Shown: positions 35,040 through 51,838, counted from the stretch's first letter. The stretch is 64,000 bases of DNA from Mollicutes bacterium (GCA_004552445.1 SFOJ01000004.1:7802-71801), one strand, 5' to 3'. A program made the numbers and translations. Notes: a model not told the origin generated them from the letters alone.

Positions 35040-35615
35040 CTATTTTTTTAACTTTTTAATGTAATTGTTAACTCTTTGTGGCCACTTTGGATCACTTGCA
35101 TATTTTGGACCAATTTGTTCTGTTGTAGTTAATCCTTTTTTATAATAAGAATTAAGTTTATTTATAGCGAATTTAATTCCTTCTTCAATGGTATCAAATC
35201 TTCTATAACTTCCTCCATTACAACCAGGTTTTCCTTTGTTGCCTCCTACGTTATTACATACTCTAGTTAAATAGCTACATCTCCAATAACAACCAGTTTC
35301 TTGCAACATTACTCCTGCTGCTAGGTAAGGATCCATTCCAACTGATATAGAATATTCAGTAATAAATTTACCTTTTCCTTTTAATGTAGAATTTAAATAT
35401 CTATCTATTTTATTTGCAATGACATCTATCTTTTCTCCATTAAAATAATTCTCTTTCTTATAATCTTCATGTTCACTTTGGAAATGTTTTACACTTAACT
35501 CAATTTGTTTATTTAAATAATCATGATTTATTTCCATGTTGTTTCTTTTATTAAATATACCACCAAATAAAGTAAGTGCTACTAATAATTTATATATCAT
35601 ATATTGTATATTCAC
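35040..35615 (-). CDS. membrane-anchored glucosaminidase/lysozyme-like domain protein
   Basis: N-terminal anchor; AAGVMLQETG...NNVGGNKG resembles the FlgJ/LytD glucosaminidase core (by eye). Confidence 0.45.
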   Translation of the reverse strand: MNIQYMIYKLLVALTLFGGIFNKRNNMEINHDYLNKQIELSVKHFQSEHEDYKKENYFNGEKIDVIANKIDRYLNSTLKGKGKFITEYSISVGMDPYLAAGVMLQETGCYWRCSYLTRVCNNVGGNKGKPGCNGGSYRRFDTIEEGIKFAINKLNSYYKKGLTTTEQIGPKYASDPKWPQRVNNYIKKLKK

Positions 35616-35715
35616 TCCTTAATGGGCAAGTGCTATTTATTATATCACTTTTAACATTATTAATCAAATTTGACTATTTTATGCGACATAAAAAGAAAAA
35701 AGCAACATTTGTTGC

Positions 35716-36471
35716 TTATTTTAAATTGAATATACTTAATATATCTTTTGGAAGTTTACCATCCCATTTATTAATAAATTCTTTGGCAATTAAATTATCT
35801 GTTAAACTTTGCTTTAACAAGTCATTTGCTTTTTTAGTAGCTTGTGCTTCAACTAATTTACTTTCTGCATCTAATTTTGCTTTTTCTAGTTTTTGCTCTG
35901 CTACTTGTTTATCTTCAATTGCTTTACTATATTCTTCACTAAAACTTAGATTTGTAATATTAAAGTTATCAATTGTGATGCCATATTTATCTACTTTAGA
36001 CTGTAAATCTTCCATACAATTTTTAGATACGTTTGCTCTTTCAGTAATTACTTCAGCTGCTGTATACTTAGCTATAGTTGCTTTAATACTTTCTTTTATA
36101 GCTGGTTCTAAAATTGTGCTTTCATAATTATTACCTACTGTTCTATATAAATGTGTTGCTTTGTCACTATTAATTCTATAGTTTACTGCTAAAGTTGTCT
36201 CTATAGTTTGTAAGTCTTTGCTTGAACTTTCAGTATTTAGTTCAATCTTTTGGACTTTTATATTTACTTTAACTATTTGTTCTATATATGGTATTTTAAG
36301 ATTCAATCCTTCATTTAATTGAGTGTTTACTATTTTACCAAATCTGACTTTTAATCCTACCTCCCCTGACTTTATAGTTTGAAAACTACAAAATATAGTT
36401 ACAACTATAAATATTGCGATAACTGTATAGATAACATATTTTTTTGTATTAGTTTTGTTTATATACTTCAT
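35716..36471 (-). CDS. SPFH/band-7 (prohibitin-like) membrane protein
   Basis: N-terminal TM, SGEVGLKVRFGK start, coiled-coil C-terminus. Confidence 0.8.
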   Translation of the reverse strand: MKYINKTNTKKYVIYTVIAIFIVVTIFCSFQTIKSGEVGLKVRFGKIVNTQLNEGLNLKIPYIEQIVKVNIKVQKIELNTESSSKDLQTIETTLAVNYRINSDKATHLYRTVGNNYESTILEPAIKESIKATIAKYTAAEVITERANVSKNCMEDLQSKVDKYGITIDNFNITNLSFSEEYSKAIEDKQVAEQKLEKAKLDAESKLVEAQATKKANDLLKQSLTDNLIAKEFINKWDGKLPKDILSIFNLK

Positions 36472-36521
36472 ATAACCCTCCTTATAATTTTATTATAAGT
36501 TATATACGTTTACTTGTCTAT

Positions 36522-37205
36522 TTATTTTAAGAAATATTTTTCTTTTATAGTTAAATTATCATCTAACTCATAAACATAAGGTATTCCAGTAGGTATTTCT
36601 ACATTCATGATGTCTTCATCACTAATATTTTCTAAGTATTTAATTATGCTTCTAAGACTATTACCATGAGCTACTACTAAAACATTTTCTTTATTTTCTA
36701 AATGTTTTTTAATTTCGTTATTATAATATGGAAGGACTCTTTCTAAAGTGTCTTTTAAACATTCTGTAAGGGGTAACTCTTCGGGAGTTAAATCTTTATA
36801 TTTAGGATCATTTCCTGGATATCTTTCATCATCTTTAGAAAGTTCTGGTGGTCTTACATCATAACTACGTCTCCATATGTGTACTTGCTCATCTCCAAAT
36901 TTCTTTCTCATTTCATCTTTATTTAATCCTTGAAGTGCTCCATAATGTCTTTCATTTAATCTATAACTATAATATACTGGAATATTAAGATTCATTTCTT
37001 TTAATACTATTTCTAGCGTTCTATTTGCTCTTTTTAGTATTGAAGTAAAAGAAACATCAAAAATGTAACCTTTATCTTTTAATAATTTTCCTGCATTTTC
37101 TGCTTCTTTTACTCCTTTTTCTGATAAGTCTACATCTGTCCATCCAGTGAATCTATTTTCTTTATTCCATACACTTTCTCCATGTCTTAATAATACTAAC
37201 TTCAT
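36522..37205 (-). CDS. gpmA: 2,3-bisphosphoglycerate-dependent phosphoglycerate mutase
   Basis: [33 protein letters not shown]. Confidence 0.9.
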
Positions 37206-37996
37206 TTTTCCTCCTTTAATAGTTTATCTAGTTCTTCTCCTATTTTATAACCTTTAACGTAGAAATCATTTAAACTAATTTTATCTACATAATTCATTCT
37301 ATAACAAATTTCTAAAGTAGTATATCCTTTATAATTTGCAATCTTTAATCCATTTATTACTTTGTTATAATCAAGTGTTCCATCATATGGTAATAAATGA
37401 TCATCAATATTACCATAATTATCATGTATATGCACGCAGAATATCTTATCTTTAAACAAACTAAAATCAAAATCATCTTTAAAATGGCAATGATAATGTC
37501 CTGAATCAAAACAAATTCCTACATTATCATTTTTAATGTTTTTAAGTAAATATTCTAGATATCCTTTCATCTTTGTATTTTCAAATGCGACTTTTATACC
37601 TAGTTTTTCTGCATAATCACATATTTTTTGATATCTTCTGAGTCCTATTTCATTTGGTTCTACTGTATCCCAACCTATTGATGCATGCATTACAACCATA
37701 TCTATATTATTATTTTTACATTCATCTAAGTTTCTTAGATATTTTTTTTCTAATTGTTCTCCTATCTCATTATCTAACCATATATTATTTAAATCTTTAT
37801 ATCCTAGATGTGCAAATATTATATTTAAATTTTTACTTTTTATATATTTAAGTTGTTCTTCTTGTGAAACTTCGAAATTTTGATCGTACCATTGTATAAA
37901 AACATTTTTAAATCCAGCATTTACTACTGCATCTATGGTTTCATATACTGTTACTGTCTTATTGTCATTAGTAATACAAACTGCTAAATTATTCAT
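37202..37996 (-). CDS. xylose-isomerase-like TIM-barrel (sugar phosphate isomerase/epimerase) protein
   Basis: Size, FENT and DSGH...HIHDN metal-site pattern. Confidence 0.6.
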
Positions 37997-38039
37997 TATT
38001 TCCTACCTTTCTATATTGATTATAACATATTTTATTGAA

Positions 38040-38447
38040 CTAATTATCTTTTAATATTTCAATATTTATAATATCATTTATATAAACTGTGGAATTGTCT
38101 GTAAATTTAATTTTAGATTCAACTGGGTTTATTATTTTTATAATACCTGTTTTATGAATATAATTTCCGCCTGATTTTTTCTCATCTTTTATAAAATATG
38201 TAATTATTACTTTGTTATTATCTTTTATATGATCATTTAAATAATTTAATTTGTTACTTATTATTACTTTTAATTCATCATCTATTTCTATTCTTTTATC
38301 TGTAATTCTTGCTGTTTCTTTTATAGCACTATCATATCCTACTAATGCAGCAAATGGAGCAAACTGGGCTGCTCTTGATTCTACACTTAAATGAGAATGG
38401 TTAGATTTTGGCCTTTCTAAATTAATAATATCTTCATAATTATTCAT
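38040..38447 (-). CDS. YolD-like protein
   Basis: RAAQFAPFAALVGYD motif; overlaps and follows the Y-family polymerase. Confidence 0.75.
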   Translation of the reverse strand: MNNYEDIINLERPKSNHSHLSVESRAAQFAPFAALVGYDSAIKETARITDKRIEIDDELKVIISNKLNYLNDHIKDNNKVIITYFIKDEKKSGGNYIHKTGIIKIINPVESKIKFTDNSTVYINDIINIEILKDN

Positions 38448-39946
38448 CCTTTATGACCTCCTACTTCTAAGTTTCTATCTTTAGCTGTTGCTCCTTCTTC
38501 ATAATTCATTGCTTTTAAAATAGAATTTTTGCCATATTTTTTCTTAATATTCAATAAAGCTTTTTGTATCTTTTTTTCTTCTATTTCGTCTTTAAGACTT
38601 TTTTCTTTTTGTTTACTTATTTCTTCATAATTAGTAAATAAATCTATTTGCTCTATTATAGATGTTGATTCTTCATTTTCTTCATTTACTATATTACATG
38701 CTGTTACATTAAGTCTTCTTATCAATAAAATAGGATTTACTATTTTATCATATAATTTCATTACTTCATTTGTTATTGTTTTAGTAGATGATGTTTTATG
38801 ATCTATATTTGCTGTTCCGTGAGAATGTTTTGGGACTTTTCTTCCGTATGCATCTATTGTTATTTCTCCTTTATATCTTCTTTCAATACTTGGATTTGTT
38901 AAGTTTTCTATATCGTAGCCTATCGTTAAAACAATTTGATCTGTTTTTAGATGTTTATCTACTAATTCTAATACTAAATTATCTACCATCTCTTTTACTA
39001 TTAATTTTGCCTTTTCAAAATCATATGGACAGTGTAATACTTGTCCTTGACTTATACTGGAATTTAAAGGTTTATAATTCTTAGCATCTTTTATTGTGCA
39101 TGGCTCATATCCCCATGCATGATCTATTAGAAATTCTGCATTTACTCCAAAAAGTTTAAATAAAAAATCTTCATTATTTATAGACATTCTTGCTATATCT
39201 CCCATAGTATACATACCATGTTCTTCTAATTTTTTAGTGTATCCTTTGCCCACTCTCCAAAAATCTGTTAATGGTTTATGGTTCCATAATTCTTTTTTAT
39301 ATTTCATTTCATCTAAATAAGCAATTCTTACACCAAATTTATTAGGTTTCATTCTTTTGGCAGTGATATCCATAGCAACTTTTGCAAGATACATATTTGT
39401 TCCAATACCAGCAGTTGCAGTTATACCGGTTGTCTTATAAACATCTTCAATTATTTTCATTACTAATCCTTCGGCAGACAATTTATAAAAACTTAAATAA
39501 TTTGTAATATCACAAAATACTTCATCAATTGAATAAACTAATATATCCTCTGGTGCAATATATTTTAAGTAAATATTGTATATTTTTGTGCTATATTTCA
39601 TATATAAGTTCATTCTTGGTACTGCAGCAATAAAATCTAATTCTAAAGATTTATTATTATTTAGTTCTGATGCTATAAAAGATTTACCTGTAAAATTCTT
39701 ATAATTATTATTTTTTCTTCTTTGATAATTTACTTCTTTTACTTTTTGCTTTGCTTCAAAAAGTCTACATCTCCCACCTAAACCATAAGATTTTAATGAA
39801 GGTGATACAGCTAAACATATAGTTTTATCTGTTCTTGATTCATCTGCTACTAAAAGATTAGTATCAAGTGGATCTAAGTTTCTTTCTATACATTCTACAG
39901 ATGCATAAAAACTTTTTAAATCTATACACATATATACTTTAGACAT
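38444..39946 (-). CDS. Y-family DNA polymerase (UmuC/ImpB-like)
   Basis: YMCIDLKSFYASVE N-terminus, SIDEVF motif. Confidence 0.85.
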   Translation of the reverse strand: MSKVYMCIDLKSFYASVECIERNLDPLDTNLLVADESRTDKTICLAVSPSLKSYGLGGRCRLFEAKQKVKEVNYQRRKNNNYKNFTGKSFIASELNNNKSLELDFIAAVPRMNLYMKYSTKIYNIYLKYIAPEDILVYSIDEVFCDITNYLSFYKLSAEGLVMKIIEDVYKTTGITATAGIGTNMYLAKVAMDITAKRMKPNKFGVRIAYLDEMKYKKELWNHKPLTDFWRVGKGYTKKLEEHGMYTMGDIARMSINNEDFLFKLFGVNAEFLIDHAWGYEPCTIKDAKNYKPLNSSISQGQVLHCPYDFEKAKLIVKEMVDNLVLELVDKHLKTDQIVLTIGYDIENLTNPSIERRYKGEITIDAYGRKVPKHSHGTANIDHKTSSTKTITNEVMKLYDKIVNPILLIRRLNVTACNIVNEENEESTSIIEQIDLFTNYEEISKQKEKSLKDEIEEKKIQKALLNIKKKYGKNSILKAMNYEEGATAKDRNLEVGGHKG

Positions 39947-40029
39947 TTTTCACCTCCATTAATTAATTTATTTATCTTTTCATATAAAATATTATAACAT
40001 TTTAATTTTCTTTAATGCTAATAATTTTG

Positions 40030-40061
40030 AATAAATAAAAACTAATTATTTCTAATTAGTT
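40030..40061 (-). terminator. intrinsic terminator after the DUF1697 gene
   Basis: AACTAATTA-gaaa-TAATTAGTT, then TTTTTATTT on the minus strand. Confidence 0.65.
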
Positions 40062-40075
40062 AAAATAATTATATA

Positions 40076-40618
40076 TTATTTTTTAGATATTTCTATTAAT
40101 TTTTTTACTGTATTTGCTGTCCTTATAGTTATTTTATCCTTAATATCTGTATTTGCTGTTTTTACCCACCAATTAGATTTTCTATAATTTTTTAAATTGA
40201 ATGACCAAAATACATAATTATTAAGTTCTTTTATTTTTTCTATTTCTTCTTTCGGCTCACCTATCGCATTATAAATATCTTTATATTTAGTAGGTGGTAT
40301 TATGAATATTAAATTATCATATACTTCCTTATTATTTGTTCCCCACCATTCTGGACAATTATTTAATAGTCTCTCTAGTTCACTAGGAATTGTAACAAAA
40401 ACTGGTATATCCAAATTAAAAGTATCTTTTATTATTTTATTAATATTATTTGCAATCTCTTCTTTAGTGAATTCACTTTCTAAAATAATATTACCACTAT
40501 TAAGATAAGTAATTACATTTGTATAATTATTTTTTTCTAGAATATTCTTAAGTTTAATCATAGATATTTTATTTTTACCACTTATATTTATTCCTCTTAA
40601 TAAAACTATATATTTCAT
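40076..40618 (-). CDS. DUF1697 protein
   Basis: MKYIVLLRGINISGKNKISM start typical of DUF1697. Confidence 0.7.
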   Translation of the reverse strand: MKYIVLLRGINISGKNKISMIKLKNILEKNNYTNVITYLNSGNIILESEFTKEEIANNINKIIKDTFNLDIPVFVTIPSELERLLNNCPEWWGTNNKEVYDNLIFIIPPTKYKDIYNAIGEPKEEIEKIKELNNYVFWSFNLKNYRKSNWWVKTANTDIKDKITIRTANTVKKLIEISKK

Positions 40619-40653
40619 AGTTTACCTACTTTCCAATTTATAATTATATCTTA

Positions 40654-41400
40654 TTACTTATTAATTAATTTTTCATATGAATTTGCATTTAATATAGTAT
40701 TTGATATAAACTTTCCTTTATAAAAGTTCGCCCAATTATTAAAGATACATGGTACATTCTTTGCTTTTTCAAGAGAATCTATTTTTATAAAATTAATTTT
40801 AATATTGTTTTTCTTTGAGTATTCAGTAAGTTCTTGTATTTCATGTTCTACATATGGACATTCATTACTATAATAAATTGTAAAGTCTTGCTCTTCTATT
40901 TTATTTAATCTAACAGTATCACAGAATTTAGGAGTTTCAGAATCATCAAATTGTAATGCTAATAATTCATAATCATTTATCGTATCTACTACTTCAAAGC
41001 CATAATGTTCAAAAAATTTCTTTTCACCAATAAATGGTTTCTTCTTTTTTGATGTTAGAGTACATACTCCACTCATTCCTTTTTCTTTAGCATCATTAAT
41101 TGCATACTCTAATAATTCTTTTCCAATTTCTTTTCCTTTAAAACTACCTGCTACCCACAAACAATAAATATATTCATAATTTTTTCCACTGATAGGTACC
41201 CAAGCTGTTTCAATAGGTTCATATTCTATAAAAGTCTTACCTCTTGCATTTAATTTTCTAAAGACATGTCCATCTTTTATTTTACTTTTAATCCATTCTT
41301 TTTTTCTATCAACCCCGACTTGATGTTTCTTATCTCCTATTGCACAACATATATGCTCATTTTCAATATTTTCAAGTGTTAAATTTATATATTCATTCAT
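40654..41400 (-). CDS. GNAT N-acetyltransferase with YoaP-like C-domain
   Basis: GKEIGKELLEYAINDAKEKG acetyl-CoA site; C-terminal thioredoxin-like YoaP pattern. Confidence 0.6.
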   Translation of the reverse strand: MNEYINLTLENIENEHICCAIGDKKHQVGVDRKKEWIKSKIKDGHVFRKLNARGKTFIEYEPIETAWVPISGKNYEYIYCLWVAGSFKGKEIGKELLEYAINDAKEKGMSGVCTLTSKKKKPFIGEKKFFEHYGFEVVDTINDYELLALQFDDSETPKFCDTVRLNKIEEQDFTIYYSNECPYVEHEIQELTEYSKKNNIKINFIKIDSLEKAKNVPCIFNNWANFYKGKFISNTILNANSYEKLINK

Positions 41401-41442
41401 TTTATTTTACTCCTTTTAATGAAAAATCAAAACTTTCTTTAA

Positions 41443-42072
41443 TTAAAATTCTTTTTTTAAAAAAATTTTTTCAGATATTTTATATGATAATAATAATATT
41501 ATTGTTAGTATTATTGGAATTATTATAAAATAATAGTTATTGAGAAATATTATTATATTGGCTGGTATACTTAATTTGGATATTTTAGTTATTAAAGTTA
41601 CTATAACTATTATAGCTATCGTTAAGGCAAATAAGCCTATTCTCCCTTTTTCTATACCATACTTAAATATTAATGGGTACATTACTGCCTCTATAAATAT
41701 TGCTCCTGTTGCTATTGCTAATACTGAAGATATAATTTTGTCAAATTCTAAATTGTTATTTATTAAACCTACGAAATAATTTAGTAAGAGTGTTACAAAT
41801 ATTGCACCTACTACTAAAATTAAACTAGCAATATATTTAGATTTTACTATATTTTTTCTACCATTTGGTAGTGTTATTGCATAGGCATCCCATTTATTAA
41901 ATTCATCATAACTAAATGTAGAAATAAATAACATTACTACGATAAACGGTAAAACAAATGTTATATCAAATTCCCCTTGTAGTGCCATTATAAAAAACAT
42001 CATAAGCATTATTATTATTAACTTTAAATTATTTTTAACTATCAAAAAATCTTTTTTTATTAATCCTAACAT
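41443..42072 (-). CDS. ABC-2 type permease
   Basis: 6 TM, overlaps the upstream ATPase. Confidence 0.65.
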   Translation of the reverse strand: MLGLIKKDFLIVKNNLKLIIIMLMMFFIMALQGEFDITFVLPFIVVMLFISTFSYDEFNKWDAYAITLPNGRKNIVKSKYIASLILVVGAIFVTLLLNYFVGLINNNLEFDKIISSVLAIATGAIFIEAVMYPLIFKYGIEKGRIGLFALTIAIIVIVTLITKISKLSIPANIIIFLNNYYFIIIPIILTIILLLSYKISEKIFLKKEF

Positions 42073-42932
42073 TTCTTTTCCCCCTTTATGACAAGAACCA
42101 TAAGTTCTTCAAGAGTTATTTTATCTATAATACAGTCTTTATATTTATTTTTTATTTTATTTTTATTATTTACTAGTACTTCATAGTTATATTTATTTTT
42201 CTTATAACTAACTATATCATCTTTAGAAATTTTATCGAATGATTTTTTATCACATTTTAATATTCCATAATTATCTAACAATTCATCTTTATTTTCGTTT
42301 AATATGATTTTACCTCTATCAATAAATATTATTTCATCAGCTATATGTTCTAAATCACTTGTTATATGAGTTGATAGTAATATTGTATGTTCTTCATCTT
42401 TTATAAAATCTAAAAATATATCTAGTATATCATCTCTTATAACAGGATCTAAACCACTTGTTGGTTCATCTAAAATTAATAGTTTTGGTTTATGAGAAAG
42501 TGCAGTAGCAATTTCTAATTTTTTTCTCATACCTTTAGATAAGTCTTTTATTTTTTTATTACTTTGTAATTTAAAATTATTTAAGTATTTATAAAATAAT
42601 TCTTTATCCCAATTTTTGTATATGTCTTTCATAATAGAATTTATATCATTTGGAGTAAGTATTTCTGGAAAAAACATTCCTTCTAGTACTACACCTATAT
42701 CTTCTTTAATTACAGATTCATACTTCTTATTGTTCTTATCAAATATTTTTATTTCTCCAGATTCAGGTTTTGTTATATTTAAAATAGATTTTATTAATGT
42801 AGTTTTTCCTGCTCCATTTTCTCCTATTAAACCTATTATATATCCACTTGGAATTTCTAAGTTAATTTCTCCAAGTTCAAAATTATTATCGTATTTTTTC
42901 TTTAAATTTTTAATTTCTATAGCATTACTCAT
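42066..42932 (-). CDS. ABC transporter ATP-binding protein
   Basis: GENGAGKTT Walker A, LSKGMRKK signature, LILDEPTSGLD Walker B. Confidence 0.9.
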   Translation of the reverse strand: MSNAIEIKNLKKKYDNNFELGEINLEIPSGYIIGLIGENGAGKTTLIKSILNITKPESGEIKIFDKNNKKYESVIKEDIGVVLEGMFFPEILTPNDINSIMKDIYKNWDKELFYKYLNNFKLQSNKKIKDLSKGMRKKLEIATALSHKPKLLILDEPTSGLDPVIRDDILDIFLDFIKDEEHTILLSTHITSDLEHIADEIIFIDRGKIILNENKDELLDNYGILKCDKKSFDKISKDDIVSYKKNKYNYEVLVNNKNKIKNKYKDCIIDKITLEELMVLVIKGEKKC

Positions 42933-43309
42933 TGTTCTTCACTCCTATATATAAATTCAAATAAATCAATTATTTCTTTTTTATCAATATTAAATCTATT
43001 AGCAATATTAATTATTTTTGATATATGATTTTCTATTTCTTTGTTTGCCTGTTCTTTTGCCAATTCAATATTTTTAGGAGCAACAAATGTTCCTTTACCT
43101 TGTACTGATTTAATATATCCTTCACTTTCTAATTCATCATAAGCTTTTTTTATTGTCATTACGCTTATCTTAATATCACTTGCGAGTGATCTAATCGATG
43201 GTATAGATTCTCCTTCTAATAGCTCATCTAACATTATTTGATTGATTATTTGATTTTTAATTTGTTCATATATTGGAACTGAACTACTATTACTAATAAT
43301 TATTTTCAT
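42929..43309 (-). CDS. GntR-family (YtrA-like) transcriptional regulator
   Basis: 126 aa, IPSIRSLASDIKISVMTIKKAYDELE wHTH. Confidence 0.85.
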   Translation of the reverse strand: MKIIISNSSSVPIYEQIKNQIINQIMLDELLEGESIPSIRSLASDIKISVMTIKKAYDELESEGYIKSVQGKGTFVAPKNIELAKEQANKEIENHISKIINIANRFNIDKKEIIDLFEFIYRSEEQ

Positions 43310-43322
43310 ATAACTCTCCCAC

Positions 43323-43353
43323 TGTTATATATATAGTATAACACCATATAACA
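43323..43353. promoter_or_regulatory. candidate GntR operator overlapping the operon promoter
   Basis: TGTTATA-n7-TATAACA palindrome, with a third TATAACA 10 bp further on, inside the TTGACA / TATACT promoter region. Confidence 0.4.
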
Positions 43354-43406
43354 CTTGTCAACTATTTATTATAAATTTAAAAAATCAGTGAATTACTGAT
43401 TCTTTT

Positions 43407-43949
43407 CTATTGTTTTTTATACATAAAACATTCTTTATCATGTGAATATATTATTCCTATTGCTTGTAAGTATGAATATATAATTGTAGAACCTACAAAT
43501 TTGCATCCTCTTTTAATTAAATCTTTAGATATCTTATCAGACAAATTATTTGTTGTTTTATCTACCTCATATAGTATATTTCCGTTTGTGAATCCGAGTA
43601 AGTATTTGTAAAAGCTTCCATATTCATTTTCTATGTTTTTAAATATTTTAGCATTATTAATACTCGATTTTATTTTAAGTTTATTTCTTATTATTTTGGG
43701 GTTTGATAGTAATTCATTTATTTTATTTTCATCATAATTAATTATTTTATCTATATCAAAGTTATCATAAGAAATTCTAAAATCTTCTCTTTTATTTAAC
43801 ACACATTCCCAAGAAAGTCCAGCCTGGAAAGATTCAAGTATTAACATTTCAAATAAATATTTATCATCTGTGTTTGGCATACACCATTCATTATCATGAT
43901 ACTCTATATATAATGGATTATCTAAGTTGCACCATTTACATCTTTTCAT
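43407..43949 (-). CDS. tag: DNA-3-methyladenine glycosylase I
   Basis: RCKWC...YHDNEWCMP...ESFQAGLSW motifs. Confidence 0.85.
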   Translation of the reverse strand: MKRCKWCNLDNPLYIEYHDNEWCMPNTDDKYLFEMLILESFQAGLSWECVLNKREDFRISYDNFDIDKIINYDENKINELLSNPKIIRNKLKIKSSINNAKIFKNIENEYGSFYKYLLGFTNGNILYEVDKTTNNLSDKISKDLIKRGCKFVGSTIIYSYLQAIGIIYSHDKECFMYKKQ

Positions 43950-44030
43950 AGTTTATTCCTTTCTTATACTTCTATTAGTTCTTTTTATTCACTATATCAT
44001 GTAATAAAGATTAATTTTCTTCTATAATTT

Positions 44031-44204
44031 TTATTTTTTTAATCTCTCATCTTTTACATATTTACATTTTCTTGGATTTCCTTCTGATCTATATATTGTT
44101 AAACTATCTAAATCAAATATAGAACTCCATACTGTTTCAAAGTTTAATGATTTATCATATTGACACATAAATCCTTTATTACCTTTAAATCTTAAATGAT
44201 ACAA
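44031..44204 (-). CDS. 57-aa hypothetical protein (TTG start)
   Basis: Own translation MYHLRFKGNKGFMCQYDKSLNFETVWSSIFDLDSLTIYRSEGNPRKCKYVKDERLKK; AAGGAGG 9 nt upstream; TTGACT-17-TATGAT promoter. Confidence 0.5.
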   Translation of the reverse strand: MYHLRFKGNKGFMCQYDKSLNFETVWSSIFDLDSLTIYRSEGNPRKCKYVKDERLKK

Positions 44205-44312
44205 TTTATATTTCCTCCTTTTTATTAGAACATATTACGTTTAAATCATATTATAATAAAAAATTTAAGTCAATAAAAAAGAAATAAAACATTTAACATA
44301 CAAATAAATATT

Positions 44313-44340
44313 AAAAAAGCAAATCTTTAACGAGATTTGC
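44313..44340 (-). terminator. intrinsic terminator after the ABC permease
   Basis: GCAAATCT-cgttaa-AGATTTGC, then TTTTTT on the minus strand. Confidence 0.75.
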
Positions 44341-44361
44341 ATAATTAGTTAAATTTATTAA

Positions 44362-45252
44362 TTATTTATTTTTGCATAACAAATGTTTTAAAATATATAA
44401 CATAAATAGAATAAATATTGTTATTATTACTATTAAATACATTGTTGATATACTAACTACATTATTATTAAATATTAATCTAATATCAATAGATTCTTTT
44501 AAACTATTTATTGCGTTATTAGGAATTATTTTTGCTAACTCTCTAAATGTACTTTCCATAACTGAATTTTTCATTAAAGCTGTTGCATATGTGGTAGGTA
44601 AAAATAGCAAAGCATTTCTTAATCCTGCACCAAATTGACTCATTGGCATATACGCACCAGCAATAAATCCATACATAGAACTAACAATTGAACCAACAGC
44701 AGAAATTTGACCTTGTGTACTTAAAAATGAATTTATTAATGATGATAAAATACAACCAAATAAAGTTAAGCCTATAACATTTAACATTATTAATAGTATA
44801 TCTATTATGTTCATAAACCAGCCATTAATAGCAATATATATTAGACACAACCCTAACGCAAATAAATTGACAATTAAAGTAGATATAAATGATGCTAAAA
44901 AATATGATATAGCCAAAGTTTTCTTATCAGTTGGTGTAATAATTAAATCCTTAATATTCCCATTTGCCTTATCTTGAACCATTAACATGTTTGAGCAAAA
45001 AGCAACAGTTATGCATGAAACAGATAATAGTGAACCTACCAATTGACCACTTACTAAACCATTAAGTAATTTACTACTAATTTCTATGCTATCAGGTATA
45101 GCACTTATAAATGCATCTTTATATACGTTAGCTAAAAATGTAGAGTATAAAACTAATAAAATTGCAGGGGTAATTAATGAAGTAAAAAACATTCCTTTAT
45201 CACTAAAATATACTTTTATATTTCTAATAGTTAAATTAATTATTTTTTTCAT
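44362..45252 (-). CDS. ABC-2 type permease
   Basis: 6-7 TM, adjacent to the ATPase. Confidence 0.75.
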   Translation of the reverse strand: MKKIINLTIRNIKVYFSDKGMFFTSLITPAILLVLYSTFLANVYKDAFISAIPDSIEISSKLLNGLVSGQLVGSLLSVSCITVAFCSNMLMVQDKANGNIKDLIITPTDKKTLAISYFLASFISTLIVNLFALGLCLIYIAINGWFMNIIDILLIMLNVIGLTLFGCILSSLINSFLSTQGQISAVGSIVSSMYGFIAGAYMPMSQFGAGLRNALLFLPTTYATALMKNSVMESTFRELAKIIPNNAINSLKESIDIRLIFNNNVVSISTMYLIVIITIFILFMLYILKHLLCKNK

Positions 45253-45253
45253 T

Positions 45254-46156
45254 CTATACCTCCAGATTACTTCCAGTTGCGTTTAAGAACACATCATCCA
45301 TTTTACCTTTTATTATTTCATAATCTTTAAATATTTCTTTATTTTTTATTATTAAATCAGTTGCTATACTTGTATTTTCGACTTCTATTTTAAATCCATC
45401 TCTAATCTTTGTATATGGTAATTTTAATTTCATTACATCATGTTCTTCTATATGGTAGATATTTATTATATCTTTAGCATATTTGTTTTTTAAATCTAAA
45501 GGTGTCCCTTCTGTAATAATTTTACCTTTTTCTATTATTGTTATAAAATCAGCATCTGCTGCTTCTTCCATATAGTGTGTTGTTAAAAAAACAGTCATAC
45601 CATTTTTTTCTCTTAAATTTCTTATTATATTCCATAATTTTTTTCTTGTATTTGGATCTAATCCTGTTGTAGGTTCATCAAGTATTAAAAATTCTGGTTC
45701 ATGAATAATTGCTCTTGCAATATCAACTCTTCTTCTTTGCCCACCAGACAAAGTTTTAACTTTTTGATTTTTAATTTCATTTAATTCAAACATTTTTGAC
45801 AATTCTTCAAATCTTTTTTTAAACTCATTTCCTGTAATATCATATAAACTAGCTCGATATTTTAAGTTATCATATACACTTAAAGTTTGATCTAAAACAG
45901 AATTTTGAAAAACCACACCTATTTTATTTTTTATATATTTTGAGTTTTTATTTATATCTTCCCCACACACTATTATATTCCCATTATCATTTTTTAAAGT
46001 TCCACATATCATAGATATCGTTGTTGATTTACCAGCACCATTAACACCTAAATATGCAAACATCTCACCCTTTTTCACTTTAAAACTTATATTATTAACC
46101 GCTTTTATTTTACCAAAACTTTTACTAACATTAGTTATCTTTAAAATTTCTTCCAT
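45254..46156 (-). CDS. ABC transporter ATP-binding protein (DrrA/CcmA-like)
   Basis: GVNGAGKST, LSGGQRRR, ILDEPTTGLD. Confidence 0.9.
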   Translation of the reverse strand: MEEILKITNVSKSFGKIKAVNNISFKVKKGEMFAYLGVNGAGKSTTISMICGTLKNDNGNIIVCGEDINKNSKYIKNKIGVVFQNSVLDQTLSVYDNLKYRASLYDITGNEFKKRFEELSKMFELNEIKNQKVKTLSGGQRRRVDIARAIIHEPEFLILDEPTTGLDPNTRKKLWNIIRNLREKNGMTVFLTTHYMEEAADADFITIIEKGKIITEGTPLDLKNKYAKDIINIYHIEEHDVMKLKLPYTKIRDGFKIEVENTSIATDLIIKNKEIFKDYEIIKGKMDDVFLNATGSNLEV

Positions 46157-46198
46157 ATAAGAGCCTCACTTTCAAATTACTATTTATCTGCCAGTTAC

Positions 46199-46207
46199 AT
46201 TATATCA
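46199..46207 (-). promoter_or_regulatory. extended -10 promoter element of the ABC operon
   Basis: TGaTATAAT on the minus strand, 43 nt before the ATG; no TTGACA-like -35, which is replaced by the repeat array. Confidence 0.55.
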
Positions 46208-46210
46208 TAA

Positions 46211-46282
46211 GTTTCCGATTTTTTCCGTTTTACTTCCGAATAATTTCCGTTTCATTTCCGATTGATTTCCATTTTTTCCGAT
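46211..46282. repeat. seven phased direct repeats, TTTCCG (CGGAAA on the gene strand)
   Basis: TTCCG at 46213, 46223, 46234, 46245, 46256, (TTCCA 46267), 46276; spacings 10, 11, 11, 11, 11, 9. Confidence 0.9.
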
Positions 46283-46603
46283 TCATATATATTAAACATT
46301 TCCATTTTGTAAATATCATTCACTCATTTCACTGCAAAATTTTAAATAAACAAAAAAATCACTTTTTCAAATAAGCGATTTTCCTTTATAAAACTTGACT
46401 TTCTAGGCCACAGAAAAGTTCAAGTTAAACTCTTATGGTGCCCTAAGGGAAGAAGTAGAACAACTCCTAGGGCAAAAGAAATAGCTAGTAATAACTATTA
46501 ACTAAATATATTATACTACATTTCTAGTAAAAATCGAAAAAACTTCATAAAAAAAATAAATTTACTCAAAAAAATGTTATAATTAGTATGGAGATGACTT
46601 GTT

Positions 46604-47272
46604 ATGCATATTAATAAAGATCTAATGTTATATATAGAAAAAAATATATTTCCAAAATATGAAAAATATTATTCTCATGGAATGTTACACATAAATAATG
46701 TAATTGAAAATATGTTGATGCTAGCTGATTATTATGAATTAGACAAAAATATGGCTTATGTTATTGCTGCTTTTCATGATATTGGTCTAAATATTGATAG
46801 AGAAAATCATGAGCACGAATCAGGAAAAATATTAAAGAATGATGTAGAGTTAAAGAAATATTTTAATAATGAACAAATCAAAATTATGAAAGAAGCCGTA
46901 GAAGATCATAGAGGTTCTAGAAAAGAAAGACCTAGAAATTTTTATGGAGAATGTGTTTCAGATTCTGATAGAGATTTTGATATTGAATTATTGGCAAAAA
47001 GACAACTAGCTACATCTCTTAAAAATTACTTAACACTTAAAACTTTTGATGAACATTTCGAAAGATGTTATGAATATATTTGCAGAAGAATTAATAATGA
47101 TGGCAATTTTAATCTTTGGACAAATAATCCTTTAATGATAGAAAAAAGAGATAAATTTCAAAAAGATTATTTAAACAAGGATTATGCAAAGTCAGTATAT
47201 AAAAAAGAGTGGGATAAAATATCAAATGATGGGACAAAGGAAAAAATACTTAATTATTATGAAGATTATTAA
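46604..47272 (+). CDS. HD-domain phosphohydrolase
   Basis: H...AAFHDIG...H pattern; TGtTATAAT extended -10 upstream. Confidence 0.7.
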   Translation: MHINKDLMLYIEKNIFPKYEKYYSHGMLHINNVIENMLMLADYYELDKNMAYVIAAFHDIGLNIDRENHEHESGKILKNDVELKKYFNNEQIKIMKEAVEDHRGSRKERPRNFYGECVSDSDRDFDIELLAKRQLATSLKNYLTLKTFDEHFERCYEYICRRINNDGNFNLWTNNPLMIEKRDKFQKDYLNKDYAKSVYKKEWDKISNDGTKEKILNYYEDY

Positions 47273-47298
47273 AAATGCTTTTTTACACTATTTTAATT

Positions 47299-47335
47299 CA
47301 CACGCTAATTGATATGTCAATTTGCAAGTGTGTTT
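47299..47335 (+). other. candidate oriT / nested inverted repeat
   Basis: CACAC...AATTGAtatgTCAATT...GTGTG followed by TTT. Confidence 0.35.
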
Positions 47336-47373
47336 CTAAATTTTCAAAAATTTAGTATAAACAAAGAATACGG

Positions 47374-50534
<3,161 letters not shown>

Positions 50535-50550
50535 CTAGTTTAAAAAACAT

Positions 50551-50817
50551 TTAATTGTTTTTAATATGAACTTCCATATCTTTTAATTTAATACATTTAG
50601 AATAATCATTTATAAAAACTTTATCACTTCCATTAAATATTAAATAATTATTCTCCTTGATTGTTATAATATGTGGACTTACATAAGCAATATTACTTCC
50701 TTTAATATTAATAATACTTCCTTGTTTAATAGAGTACTTACAACAAGCAAATCTACATATCATATCAATTCTTTTTAGAACTTCCTTTTCAACATCTAAT
50801 ATTTTTACTTCCTTCAT
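50551..50817 (-). CDS. hypothetical 88-aa protein upstream of the recombinase
   Basis: GTGAGGAG SD 4 nt before ATG 50817. Confidence 0.5.
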   Translation of the reverse strand: MKEVKILDVEKEVLKRIDMICRFACCKYSIKQGSIINIKGSNIAYVSPHIITIKENNYLIFNGSDKVFINDYSKCIKLKDMEVHIKNN

Positions 50818-50844
50818 AAAACTCCTCACTTTCCTTATAATAAC

Positions 50845-50870
50845 AAAAAAACTAGACGGTACTTCTAGTT
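50845..50870 (-). terminator. intrinsic terminator downstream of the tRNA pair
   Basis: AACTAGA-agtaccg-TCTAGTT, then T7 on the minus strand. Confidence 0.65.
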
Positions 50871-50912
50871 AATATTTATTACTACTCGAAAAGTTCGAGT
50901 TTCCTATCAATC

Positions 50913-50988
50913 TGGTGCTGAAAAGAGGAATCGAACCCCCAACCTACTGATTACGATTCAGTTGCTCTACCGATTGAGCTATTTCAGC
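50913..50988 (-). tRNA. tRNA-Thr (anticodon CGU), CCA encoded
   Basis: GCTGAAA acceptor, GCTC/GAGC D arm, loop AT-CGT-AA, GGTTCGATTCC T arm, TTTCAGC-A-CCA. Confidence 0.9.
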
Positions 50989-50989
50989 A

Positions 50990-51063
50990 TGGTTGCCTCA
51001 ATAGGATTCGAACCTATGATGCTGGAGTCAGAGTCCAGAGCCTTACCGCTTGGCCATGAGGCA
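50990..51063 (-). tRNA. tRNA-Gln (anticodon CUG), CCA encoded
   Basis: TGCCTCA acceptor, GCCAAGCGGTAAGGC D arm typical of tRNA-Gln, loop CT-CTG-AC, GGTTCGAATCC, TGAGGCA-A-CCA. Confidence 0.9.
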
Positions 51064-51484: not shown

Positions 51485-51838
51485 TGGTGGAGATGAGGAG
51501 TAGCGAACTCCTGTCCAAGATTCATCCCAGTAGAATTTCTACAAGTTTAGTTGGTTTTTAAATTCAAATAATAATGTAGATTGCCAACTTCTCTTATTAT
51601 TCTAAGTTTGCTATTCATTCATTATAAATCACAAACAAATTTATAATATAGTTCACTTTATGACTCCCCTCTTAAAACTCGTGAACAAAAGTTAAAAGTG
51701 GAAGCTCCGTTTTACTTAACTTAAGCAAAAGATGGAGAAAAATTAAAATCGTTTCCGATTATTTTAGTTTTTGCATTTATAGTATGCCTACTACTTGCAT
51801 TCTACCCAGACATAACCCTGTCGAATCAATGCATCCCC
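51485..51838 (-). ncRNA. ssrA: tmRNA
   Basis: 5' GGGGATGCATTGATTCGACAGGG, 3' GGACAGGAGTTCGCTACTCCTCATCTCCACCA; tag frame GCA AAA ACT...TTT GCT TAA at 51721-51774. Confidence 0.9.

What the first reader, a model, noticed from the sequence alone, without database searches (positions are those of the whole stretch)
46199..46303. Seven helically phased CGGAAA repeats occupy the -26 to -95 region of an ABC-operon promoter, with no regulator gene nearby
On the gene strand the sequence reads TCGGAAA aa ATGGAAA tcaa TCGGAAA tgaa ACGGAAA ttat TCGGAAG taaa ACGGAAA aaa TCGGAAA, then cttaTGaTATAAT. The hexamers recur every 9-11 bp (mostly 11), so all lie on one face of the helix. They replace the -35 box of an otherwise perfect extended -10 promoter 43 nt before the ATPase ATG. 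Hexamer-N5 direct repeats are the binding grammar of OmpR/PhoB-type response regulators. Eleven-bp iterons are also the grammar of ParR-type centromeres (parC). The G-AAA phasing would also bend the DNA. Neither a two-component system nor a partition gene is in the window, and the array borders the mobile element.
Basis: partly seen in the sequence, partly recalled or inferred. Interest (0 to 1): 0.6.

Follow-up and report, generated by a model that had tools for sequence, protein, structure and literature searches.

The report
Phased repeat array upstream of promoter
Seven evenly spaced CGGAAA repeats in front of a transporter operon are real, but they belong to a conserved promoter block that sits behind tRNA/tmRNA genes in related gut bacteria and drives different genes there, so they are most likely an exaggerated form of ordinary upstream promoter DNA, not a private switch for this operon.

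Summary
Seven (C/T)GGAA(A/G) hexamers, 9-11 bp apart, abut a TGaTATAAT extended -10 box with no -35. The array is unique in this 1.36-Mb, 26% GC genome.

The interpretation mostly does not hold.

The array is part of a ~290-bp module: hairpin, terminator, conserved box, array, extended -10, leader. In about a dozen related gut Bacilli MAGs this module starts right after the CCA of tmRNA, tRNA-Thr or tRNA-Leu genes and precedes unrelated genes. In the window a 4.5-kb serine-recombinase/MobV element has split tRNA-Thr from this native flank.

The units are orthologous across genera, so this is not a free microsatellite. Unit number still varies from 5 to 9, and the CGG decays in several lineages while the A-run is conserved (p=0.0007).

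The other 110 extended -10 promoters of the genome show phased A-runs at -21/-31/-41/-51, where the array's proximal A-runs lie.

No second site exists in the genome. No response regulator, ParR/ParM or tyrosine integrase lies on the contig. Predicted curvature is unremarkable.

Best reading (about 0.4): a tandemly duplicated UP-like upstream element of a reused promoter. A factor-binding array (about 0.3) is not excluded.

The parts
46211..46304 (-). Array of seven (plus one distal) 11-bp units, each (C/T)GGAA(A/G) plus a 3-5 bp A/T spacer. On the minus strand the hexamers start at 46217, 46227, 46238, 46249, 46260, 46271 and 46280 (distal one at 46304).
   Evidence: Unit orthology across genomes.
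46199..46207 (-). Extended -10 promoter TGaTATAAT with no -35. Predicted transcription start near 46192.
   Evidence: Read from the sequence. The same TTATGRTATAAT follows the array in L086, L198, L201, L199 and L203.
46164..46190 (-). Leader CAGATAAATAGTAATTTGAAAGTGAGG (5' UTR plus ribosome-binding site). It is a family-wide consensus found before many unrelated genes. Homology between module copies ends after ...AAATAGTAATTT.
46305..46350 (-). Conserved spacer ('GTAGTGA box', TTTTGCAGTGAAATGAGTGAATGATATTTACAAAA) between terminator and array.
   Evidence: Also present in the second locus type.
46351..46384 (-). Rho-independent terminator (AAAATCGCTT...AAGTGATTTTTTT) of the tRNA/tmRNA transcription unit.
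46393..46426 (-). Conserved hairpin AACTTGAAC...GTCAAGTT that directly follows the CCA end of the RNA gene in all module copies.
46436..46441 (-). GCACCA: the displaced original 3' end of tRNA-Thr, the right junction (attR) of the inserted element.
   Evidence: Joined element ends across TGGTGC in L180.
46442..50912 (-). 4.5-kb integrative mobilizable element, not part of the array's unit: HD-domain gene, 116-aa ORF, Mob_Pre relaxase, 640-aa large serine recombinase, 92-aa ORF.
50913..50988 (-). tRNA-Thr(cgt), ending in GCACCA at 50913-50918 (attL). tRNA-Gln lies at 50990-51063 and tmRNA at 51485-51838.
44362..46156 (-). ABC ATPase (45254-46156) and ABC-2 permease (44362-45252), the genes now driven by the module's promoter. 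The pair behaves as a two-gene cassette with patchy distribution.

Best explanation
The array is the upstream part of a -35-less extended -10 promoter. It is a tandemly duplicated 11-bp unit (partly a 22-bp unit) whose conserved core is the A-run (GAAAT-N-A). This places A-runs on one DNA face at about -22, -32, -40 and -54, the positions where this genome's promoters generally carry A-runs. I infer that it acts as an UP-like element: it contacts the RNA polymerase alpha C-terminal domains or helps upstream DNA wrap, making a strong and probably constitutive promoter with no dedicated regulator.

The array and promoter belong to a conserved ~290-bp block that lies immediately behind tRNA/tmRNA genes, a recombination hot spot used by serine-recombinase elements. 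The block has been re-joined to different genes at its conserved leader. In this genome it drives an accessory ABC exporter cassette.

Shown: the anatomy, the module's conservation and context, gene swapping at the leader, the conservation pattern, and genome-wide A-run phasing. Inferred: the alpha-CTD/UP-like function, promoter strength, and the origin of CGG as a passenger of unit duplication.
For: 1. The array is absent from orthologous ABC operons. It is present with the same promoter behind tmRNA, tRNA-Thr or tRNA-Leu genes and before unrelated genes.
2. Across 8 copies, positions A5, A6 and A9 changed in 3 of 134 cells against 17 of 120 at spacer positions 8, 10 and 11 (Fisher p=0.0007). 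C1, G2 and G3 changed in 22 of 141 cells, the same rate as the spacers.
3. L199 has lost 6 of 7 CGG but keeps the A-run phasing and the -10 box.
4. In the 110 other extended -10 promoters of the genome, AAA runs are phased at about 10-10.5 bp. Power is 1.51 against a random-site mean of 0.13 and maximum of 0.56 (0 of 300). Peaks lie at -21, -31, -41 and -51; the array's A-runs start at -22, -32, -39 and -54.
5. No second site exists in the genome, not even a pair, and no regulator lies on the contig.
6. The distance from the last unit to TG/-10 is fixed in all copies with intact arrays.
7. A-boxes spaced about 10 bp apart, acting as UP-like elements to about -100 without a dedicated factor, are documented for the H. 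pylori sabA promoter (PMC4081817).
Against: - The 11-bp period drifts out of register with the genome-wide ~10-bp peaks beyond about -54, so the distal units would add little.
- UP elements normally end near -60, whereas the array reaches -88.
- CGG is kept in 6 of 7 units here and in L086 despite a strong A+T bias, and G3 is fairly conserved (8.5% changed). This promoter is the only one in the genome with a phased GGAA chain. All three points hint at sequence-specific recognition.
- The indels are 22 bp and the grammar is 7+4 bp, which fits dimeric winged-helix binders.
- The wedge model predicts no unusual curvature, so any effect would come from contacts and not from bending.
Confidence: 0.4

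Rival explanations
1. Binding array for a sequence-specific protein that binds head-to-tail on direct repeats. Candidates are an OmpR/PhoB-type response regulator acting as a class II activator, or another oligomerising winged-helix or Xis/BldC/Cox-type protein acting as activator or repressor. The protein would be encoded elsewhere in the genome or on a mobile element.
For: - A 7-bp core plus a 4-bp A/T spacer at an 11-bp period is the grammar of PhoP/PhoB-type sites (PMC2275107, PMC4832192).
- One hexamer sits exactly at -35 and the promoter has no -35 of its own.
- TRF finds a 22-bp super-period and the indels are 22 bp.
- The array is old, yet CGG is kept in 6 of 7 units in the window and in L086.
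- The genome encodes 9 receiver-domain proteins.
- BldC-type proteins bind variable numbers of direct repeats cooperatively (PMC5859096).
- In L278 a similar array precedes a serine-recombinase promoter.
Against: - No second site exists anywhere in the genome, not even a pair, and no regulator gene is linked in any of about 12 module copies.
- CGG erodes at the spacer rate and is largely lost in L199, L203, L204, L206 and L200 while the promoter persists.
- CGGAAAT arrays are no more common than composition-matched controls in viral contigs: 14 against 8 and 12.
- The last unit lies in the -35/-10 spacer (-25 to -19), closer to the -10 than in classical pho promoters.
Confidence: 0.3
2. Relic of an integrative element. 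The block behind the tRNA would be the decayed end (att arm or early regulatory region) of an element that once integrated at the tRNA/tmRNA 3' end. The repeats would be former binding sites for its recombination-directionality or switch protein, in the style of Cox/Apl/Xis. The promoter now reads into whatever gene lies next.
For: - The module begins exactly after the CCA of different RNA genes, the target of abundant serine-recombinase elements. These occur in 74 of 151 family genomes, and 20 of 30 fetched loci lie behind a tRNA/tmRNA gene.
- In L278 an array plus promoter lies inside such an element, before the recombinase gene.
- A related array type lies next to a prophage lysis module and a pseudo-tRNA 3' end in L248 and L239.
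- The ~11 kb next to the array is absent from a same-genus genome.
Against: - None of 30 family recombinase loci carries such an array.
- No tyrosine integrase lies on the contig.
- No second GCACCA-plus-hairpin copy bounds the segment.
- No recombinase or shared gene lies downstream of any module copy.
- The unit was not found in viral contigs.
- The hairpin and terminator look like a native tRNA flank.
Confidence: 0.13
3. Functionless tandem repeat: an 11/22-bp minisatellite that arose by slippage in a non-essential intergenic region and is drifting.
For: - Unit number differs between genera (5, 7, 9). L086 has two identical extra units and L163 lacks two.
- G/C positions decay towards A/T in many lineages.
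- Eleven-bp arrays of arbitrary heptamers are common everywhere.
Against: - The units are orthologous across genera with unit-specific spacers, so the array is old and mostly stable.
- The A-run positions are significantly more conserved than neighbouring A/T positions (p=0.0007).
- The register to the -10 box is fixed.
Confidence: 0.15
4. ParR-type centromere (parC-like) for DNA partition.
For: Eleven-bp direct iterons flanking or abutting a promoter are the layout of R1 parC (PMC2241845).
Against: - The locus is chromosomal.
- The genes downstream are an ABC ATPase and permease, not parM/parR.
- There is a single block of repeats, not two sets of five.
- The module occurs once per genome behind tRNA genes.
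Confidence: 0.02

Closest known systems
UP elements and phased upstream A-tracts/A-boxes of bacterial promoters, for example the H. pylori sabA UP-like A-boxes (PMC4081817) and Bacillus UP elements (PMC9655642). From my own knowledge, not checked here: Helmann's 1995 compilation of B. subtilis sigma-A promoters, and the phased A-tracts of the C. perfringens plc promoter.
   Same: A-runs repeated about once per helical turn upstream of the core promoter. No dedicated regulator is needed. The same phasing is seen in the genome's other extended -10 promoters.
   Different: Here the A-runs are embedded in seven near-identical 11-bp tandem units with a G/C-containing core (CGG). The array extends to -88, replaces the -35, and has an 11-bp rather than a 10-10.5-bp period. 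Function was not tested.
Pho boxes and other OmpR/PhoB-family direct-repeat sites (11-nt DRus of Streptomyces PhoP, PMC2275107; 7-bp motif plus 4-bp spacer of M. tuberculosis PhoP, PMC4832192)
   Same: A 7+4-bp direct-repeat grammar, several units in tandem, overlap with the -35 region of a promoter lacking a -35, and a 22-bp (dimer) super-period.
   Different: No cognate regulator is identified or linked. There is a single site in the genome. The recognition-like CGG is not better conserved than the spacers. The last unit lies closer to the -10 box.
Reused or 'mobile' promoters (Promoter reuse in prokaryotes, PMC3575422)
   Same: The same promoter-plus-leader sequence stands before non-homologous genes within and between genomes.
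   Different: Here the reused piece is anchored behind tRNA/tmRNA genes and carries a repeat array. The swapping mechanism (recombination at the conserved leader) is inferred.
R1 parC / ParR centromere (PMC2241845)
   Same: Eleven-bp direct iterons next to a promoter.
   Different: No parMR genes, one block of repeats instead of two sets of five, and a chromosomal tRNA-flank location.
Cox/Apl/Xis/BldC-type head-to-tail binding arrays (BldC: PMC5859096; Cox and Apl from my own knowledge)
   Same: Five to seven phased direct repeats overlapping a promoter, close to an attachment site at a tRNA end.
   Different: No such protein gene and no integrase is associated with any module copy. None of 30 related recombinase elements has the array.

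Membership tests
OmpR/PhoB-type response-regulator binding site (pho-box-like) | Direct repeats of about 6-7 conserved bp at an 11-bp period, in multiples of two | tested here: met
   Seven units with spacings of 9-11 bp. TRF reports periods 11 and 22. Indels are 22 bp.
OmpR/PhoB-type response-regulator binding site (pho-box-like) | A cognate response regulator or two-component system, usually linked to its target or controlling a regulon of similar sites | tested here: not met
   No receiver-domain gene lies on the 96.7-kb contig; 9 lie elsewhere. No other array or pair of sites exists in the genome. No regulator is linked in other module copies.
OmpR/PhoB-type response-regulator binding site (pho-box-like) | Recognition bases conserved more strongly than spacer bases among orthologous sites | tested here: not met
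   C1, G2 and G3 changed in 22 of 141 cells against 17 of 120 for the spacer (p=0.86). Only the A-run is constrained.
OmpR/PhoB-type response-regulator binding site (pho-box-like) | Protein binding and regulator-dependent activation | not testable with these tools
   Needs EMSA, DAP-seq or reporter assays.
ParR-type centromere (parC) | Iterons adjacent to, and autoregulating, a parM-parR (or parA-parB) operon on a plasmid or other mobile replicon | tested here: not met
   The downstream genes are ABC_tran and ABC2_membrane. The context is a chromosomal tRNA flank.
UP-like / phased A-tract upstream promoter element | A-rich tracts upstream of the core promoter, in helical phase with it, at the positions favoured in the organism's promoters | tested here: met
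   Array A-runs lie at -22, -32, -39 and -54 against genome-wide peaks at -21, -31, -41 and -51. The periodicity is significant (0 of 300 controls).
UP-like / phased A-tract upstream promoter element | Constraint on the A-tracts and not on the flanking bases | tested here: met
   A5, A6 and A9 changed in 3 of 134 cells against 17 of 120 (p=0.0007). L199 keeps the A-runs after losing CGG.
UP-like / phased A-tract upstream promoter element | Intrinsic curvature of the upstream DNA | tested here: not met
   Wedge model: 63 degrees, top 8% of genome windows. Orthologues give 18-35 degrees, which is average. A phased-A6 control is strongly curved. The parameters were recalled from memory. Curvature is not required for alpha-CTD contact.
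UP-like / phased A-tract upstream promoter element | Alpha-CTD-dependent stimulation of transcription | not testable with these tools
   Needs in vitro transcription or a reporter assay.
Neutral microsatellite/minisatellite | Copy number varies freely, with units homogenised or randomly decaying | tested here: inconclusive
   Copy number is 5, 7 or 9 between genera, but the units are orthologous with unit-specific spacers and a constrained A-run. Strain-level data were unavailable.
att arm / recombination-directionality-factor array of a tRNA-targeting integrative element | Array lies inside an element bounded by att repeats and encoding a recombinase | tested here: not met
   The array lies outside the serine-recombinase element. 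No tyrosine integrase is on the contig. There is no second att copy. None of 30 related elements has an array. L278 is the one exception.

The most novel reading that the evidence does not exclude
The conserved block behind tRNA/tmRNA genes (hairpin, terminator, box, repeat array, extended -10, leader) could be a dedicated expression platform at a recombination hot spot, loosely comparable to an integron's attI/Pc region. Genes would be exchanged at the fixed leader junction (...AAATAGTAATTT). The repeat array would bind a still unknown factor, host-encoded or carried by the abundant serine-recombinase elements that target the adjacent GCACCA, which sets expression of whatever gene has been captured.
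Probability: 0.07. Interest if true: 0.7.

Novelty: new member of a known kind. Interest (0 to 1): 0.3.

Why it matters
A striking repeat array next to a promoter invites the inference of a hidden regulator. Comparative data here show that the array belongs to a reused promoter block and not to the operon. They also show that what is conserved is the A-run phasing common to this organism's promoters.

For annotating these uncultured, Mollicute-like gut Bacilli this gives three things:
- a recognisable strong-promoter signature;
- exact limits of a serine-recombinase mobilizable element and its GCACCA target in tRNA/tmRNA 3' ends;
- an example of promoter and leader reuse.

If the array does bind a specific factor, it would be a compact natural multi-site operator worth testing. 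On present evidence that is the less likely reading.

Tried and rejected
1. ABC-operon regulon. Rejected: the orthologous operons lack the array and the genome has no other site.
2. Array as part of the serine-recombinase element, giving an outward promoter that would drive the recombinase in the circular form (Tn4451-like). Rejected: the element ends at the GCACCA at 46436-46441, the joined ends are seen in L180, and the flank with the array follows tRNA/tmRNA genes directly in other genomes.
3. Array as a general operator of recombinase promoters, prompted by L278. None of 30 family loci has one.
4. A widespread CGGAAAT-binding protein family. More than 120 hits occur in all phyla, but composition-matched control heptamers give similar counts in viral contigs (14 against 8 and 12). 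Arrays before 620-aa HTH/AAA-like genes (L227, L262, L234) have no homologue in this genome.
5. Known RNA element. There is no Rfam match even at E<=1. Small ORFs across the array are not conserved in frame.
6. Phage origin of the unit. Two viral scans found nothing relevant.
7. Metagenome scan for strain variants. It gave one relevant copy (L367); the rest were rubrerythrin coding matches.
8. Cassette or older-element boundaries. There is no second GCACCA-plus-hairpin copy.
9. Strong intrinsic curvature. Not predicted.

Full report
**1. The observation.** The repeats are there. On the minus strand the sequence reads TGGAAA-(24)-CGGAAAaaa TGGAAAtcaat CGGAAAtgaaa CGGAAAttatt CGGAAGtaaaa CGGAAAaaat CGGAAAc-tta-TG-a-TATAAT.
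- Five exact CGGAAA fall within 70 bp. The whole 64-kb window has 17, against 7.2 +/- 2.8 in shuffles, and 0 of 100 shuffles reach 17.
- Tandem Repeats Finder reports period 11 (6.8 copies) and period 22.
- The 1.36-Mb, 25.9% GC assembly has no other cluster of this kind, and not even a second pair of CGGAA 10-11 bp apart.
- The -10 hexamer is at 46199-46204, TG at 46206-46207, and the ATG of the ABC ATPase at 46156.
- With a start near 46192 the hexamers begin at -25, -35, -46, -57, -68, -79 and -88. There is no -35 hexamer.
- The downstream genes are an ABC ATPase and an ABC-2 permease.

**2. What surrounds it.**
- Upstream on the gene strand lie an HD-domain gene, a 116-aa ORF, a Mob_Pre relaxase, a 640-aa large serine recombinase and a 92-aa ORF. 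Beyond them are tRNA-Thr(cgt), tRNA-Gln(ctg) and tmRNA.
- tRNA-Thr ends ...TTTTCAGCACCA at 50913. The same GCACCA recurs at 46436-46441.
- In a related genome (L180) the two element ends are joined across TGGTGC.
- So the mobile element is 46442-50912 and has inserted into the 3' end of tRNA-Thr.
- The following therefore make up the tRNA's displaced native 3' flank, not element DNA: a hairpin (46393-46426), a rho-independent terminator (46351-46384; fold z = -3.2), a conserved 45-nt box, and the array.
- Relatives of the recombinase occur in 74 of 151 family genomes. Twenty of 30 fetched loci lie 400-600 bp behind a tRNA or tmRNA gene.

**3. The array does not belong to the ABC operon.** Three MAGs carry the same two genes at 85-89% DNA identity (L001-L003).
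- In L001 and L003 another gene ends about 45 nt before the ATG.
- In L002 there is a different terminator and promoter.
- None of the three has the array.
- Same-genus genomes lack the operon altogether. Synteny with one of them stops at about 35.45 kb of the window, so the operon lies in an accessory segment.

**4. What the array does belong to.** A pattern built only on the hairpin arm and terminator found ten loci in gut 'Bacilli/Tenericutes/Mycoplasma' MAGs. Whole-genome searches added more.
- In every case the block starts right after the CCA of an RNA gene: tmRNA (L086, L202, L206, L163), tRNA-Thr(ggt) (L201, L203, L204, L205), or tRNA-Leu (L198, L200).
- It then continues hairpin, terminator, box, array, TTATGATATAAT...AAATAGTAATTT, after which the genes differ.
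- L086 and L198 share block and downstream gene but follow different RNA genes.
- The last ~45 nt (-10 plus leader CAGATAAATAGTAATTTGAAAGTGAGG) is a family-wide consensus found before many unrelated genes in many genomes. It occurs three times in this genome.
- L001 and L003 have the same leader before the ABC genes. Recombination at the leader can therefore explain how the block came to drive the operon here (inference).
- A second locus type (L239, L248, L252, L269) has terminator, box and arrays with the same unit types, then another extended -10 and a 48-nt sequence ending ...ATCGCACCA. L202 links the two types.
- Neither locus type matches any Rfam family.

**5. Is the array constrained?** MAFFT aligns the units column by column across seven genomes.
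- Each unit has its own spacer (..aaaat, ..gtaaaa, ..attatt, ..atgaaa, ..at[ct]aat), conserved between genera. The array is therefore old and is not a freely expanding microsatellite.
- Indels are two-unit steps: L086 has 22 bp more and L163 has 22 bp less.
- CGG is kept in 6 of 7 units (window, L086), 5 of 7 (L198), 4 of 7 (L201), 3 of 7 (L203) and 1 of 7 (L199). In L204, L206 and L200 only A/T-rich relics remain.
- Per position, C1 and G2 are the most eroded (19% each) and A5 and A6 the least (2%).
- A5, A6 and A9 changed in 3 of 134 cells against 17 of 120 for spacer positions 8, 10 and 11 (p=0.0007). CGG changed in 22 of 141 cells, no different from the spacers (p=0.86).
- What selection preserves is GAAAT-N-A at a fixed phase, together with the distance to the -10.

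**6. Mechanism tests.**
- (a) *Curvature.* A wedge model, with parameters recalled from memory, gives 63 degrees for the window's array (top 8% of genome windows). Its orthologues give 18-35 degrees, which is average, and a phased-A6 control is strongly curved. Intrinsic bending is therefore not supported.
- (b) *General promoter architecture.* In the 110 other TGnTATAAT promoters with a downstream gene, AAA runs are phased at 10-10.5 bp. Power is 1.51 against a random-site maximum of 0.56 (0 of 300). Peaks lie at -21, -31, -41, -51, -60 and -73. The array's A-runs start at -22, -32, -39, -54, -65, -76 and -85. The proximal units coincide with the preferred positions and the distal ones drift.
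- (c) *Regulator.* The genome has nine receiver-domain proteins and none is on this contig. No tyrosine integrase is on it either. No regulator or recombinase is shared downstream of the module copies.
- (d) *Global motif.* CGGAAAT-N4 arrays occur in all phyla, but control heptamers are about as frequent. These arrays therefore do not point to one conserved binding protein.
- (e) *Recombinase operator.* In L278 an array plus promoter precedes the recombinase gene of a related element. None of 30 family loci has one.
- (f) *Older insertion or cassette.* No further GCACCA-plus-hairpin copy bounds the segment.

**7. Conclusion.** The best-supported reading (about 0.4) is an UP-like, phased A-run upstream element. 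It would have been made by tandem duplication of an 11/22-bp unit, and it forms the upstream half of a -35-less extended -10 promoter. That promoter belongs to a reused promoter block anchored behind tRNA/tmRNA genes.
- This reading explains the absent regulator, the single site, the conservation pattern, the fixed register and the decay of CGG.
- It does not explain well why the array is so long and regular, or why CGG survives in several lineages.
- A sequence-specific, head-to-tail binding protein therefore remains a serious rival (about 0.3).
- A relic of an integrative element (about 0.13) and a functionless repeat (about 0.15) follow. A parC-type centromere is contradicted by the gene content.

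**8. Limits.**
- All relatives are MAGs with short contigs.
- The unit table rests on eight copies.
- The transcription start is predicted, not measured.

Noticed in passing
window 46442-50912: The serine-recombinase/MobV element is bounded by GCACCA at both junctions (50913-50918 and 46436-46441), so it targets the last bases of tRNA-Thr. L180 (G065) holds the two ends joined across TGGTGC, which looks like attP. Relatives of the recombinase occur in 74 of 151 family genomes, mostly 400-600 bp behind tRNA-Leu, Gly, Thr or Cys genes or tmRNA, always with a small 90-96-aa ORF between the tRNA and the recombinase gene.
   Followed up: partly
window 46442-46521 (minus strand): The element's right end carries an outward-facing TAGTATAAT (46510-46515). 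It is followed by a hairpin that ends in the junction as GCCCTAGG...CCCTTAGGGC-ACCA, a minihelix-like stem plus ACCA. After that come the displaced tRNA hairpin and terminator. In the integrated state the 92-aa ORF and the recombinase gene have no evident promoter of their own. They follow the tRNA and a terminator directly, so expression from the circular form across the junction is conceivable.
   Followed up: no
window 46164-46207; own genome C12 and C15; L167-L179: A ~45-nt promoter-plus-leader consensus (TGRTATAAT-N7-9-CAGATAAATAGTAATTTGAAAGTGAGG) stands before many unrelated genes, often membrane or secreted proteins, across the family. It often sits directly after a terminator. This is a case of promoter and leader reuse.
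   Followed up: partly
L239, L248, L252, L269 (about 100 nt after their arrays): A conserved 48-nt sequence, GAAAATGTCAACGAGGGACAGTTCATATAAGGTACGAGTATCGCACCA, follows an extended -10 promoter. It ends like a tRNA 3' end and is followed by tRNA-type flank hairpins. It has no Rfam match. It could be an att remnant or a small RNA. In L248 it lies just past a phage lysis module.
   Followed up: partly
own genome C50:61650-63631: A second serine-recombinase element lies in the same genome: tRNA-Gly, 15 nt, GCACCA, terminator, a 90-aa ORF, then the recombinase (41% identical to the window's).
   Followed up: no
window ~35450-46440: About 11 kb next to the tRNA flank has no DNA match in a same-genus genome. 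It holds SPFH, histidine phosphatase, AP endonuclease, a Y-family polymerase, DUF1697, GNAT-YoaP, a GntR-ABC operon, 3-methyladenine glycosylase and the ABC operon. It looks like an accessory segment rich in DNA-repair genes. No att-like boundary was found.
   Followed up: partly
L227, L262, L234: In gut Clostridia MAGs, CGGAAAT 11-bp arrays with an inverted copy near the -10 precede ~620-aa proteins that have an N-terminal excisionase-type HTH and an AAA-ATPase-like region. This may be an autoregulated family. It has no homologue in this genome.
   Followed up: no
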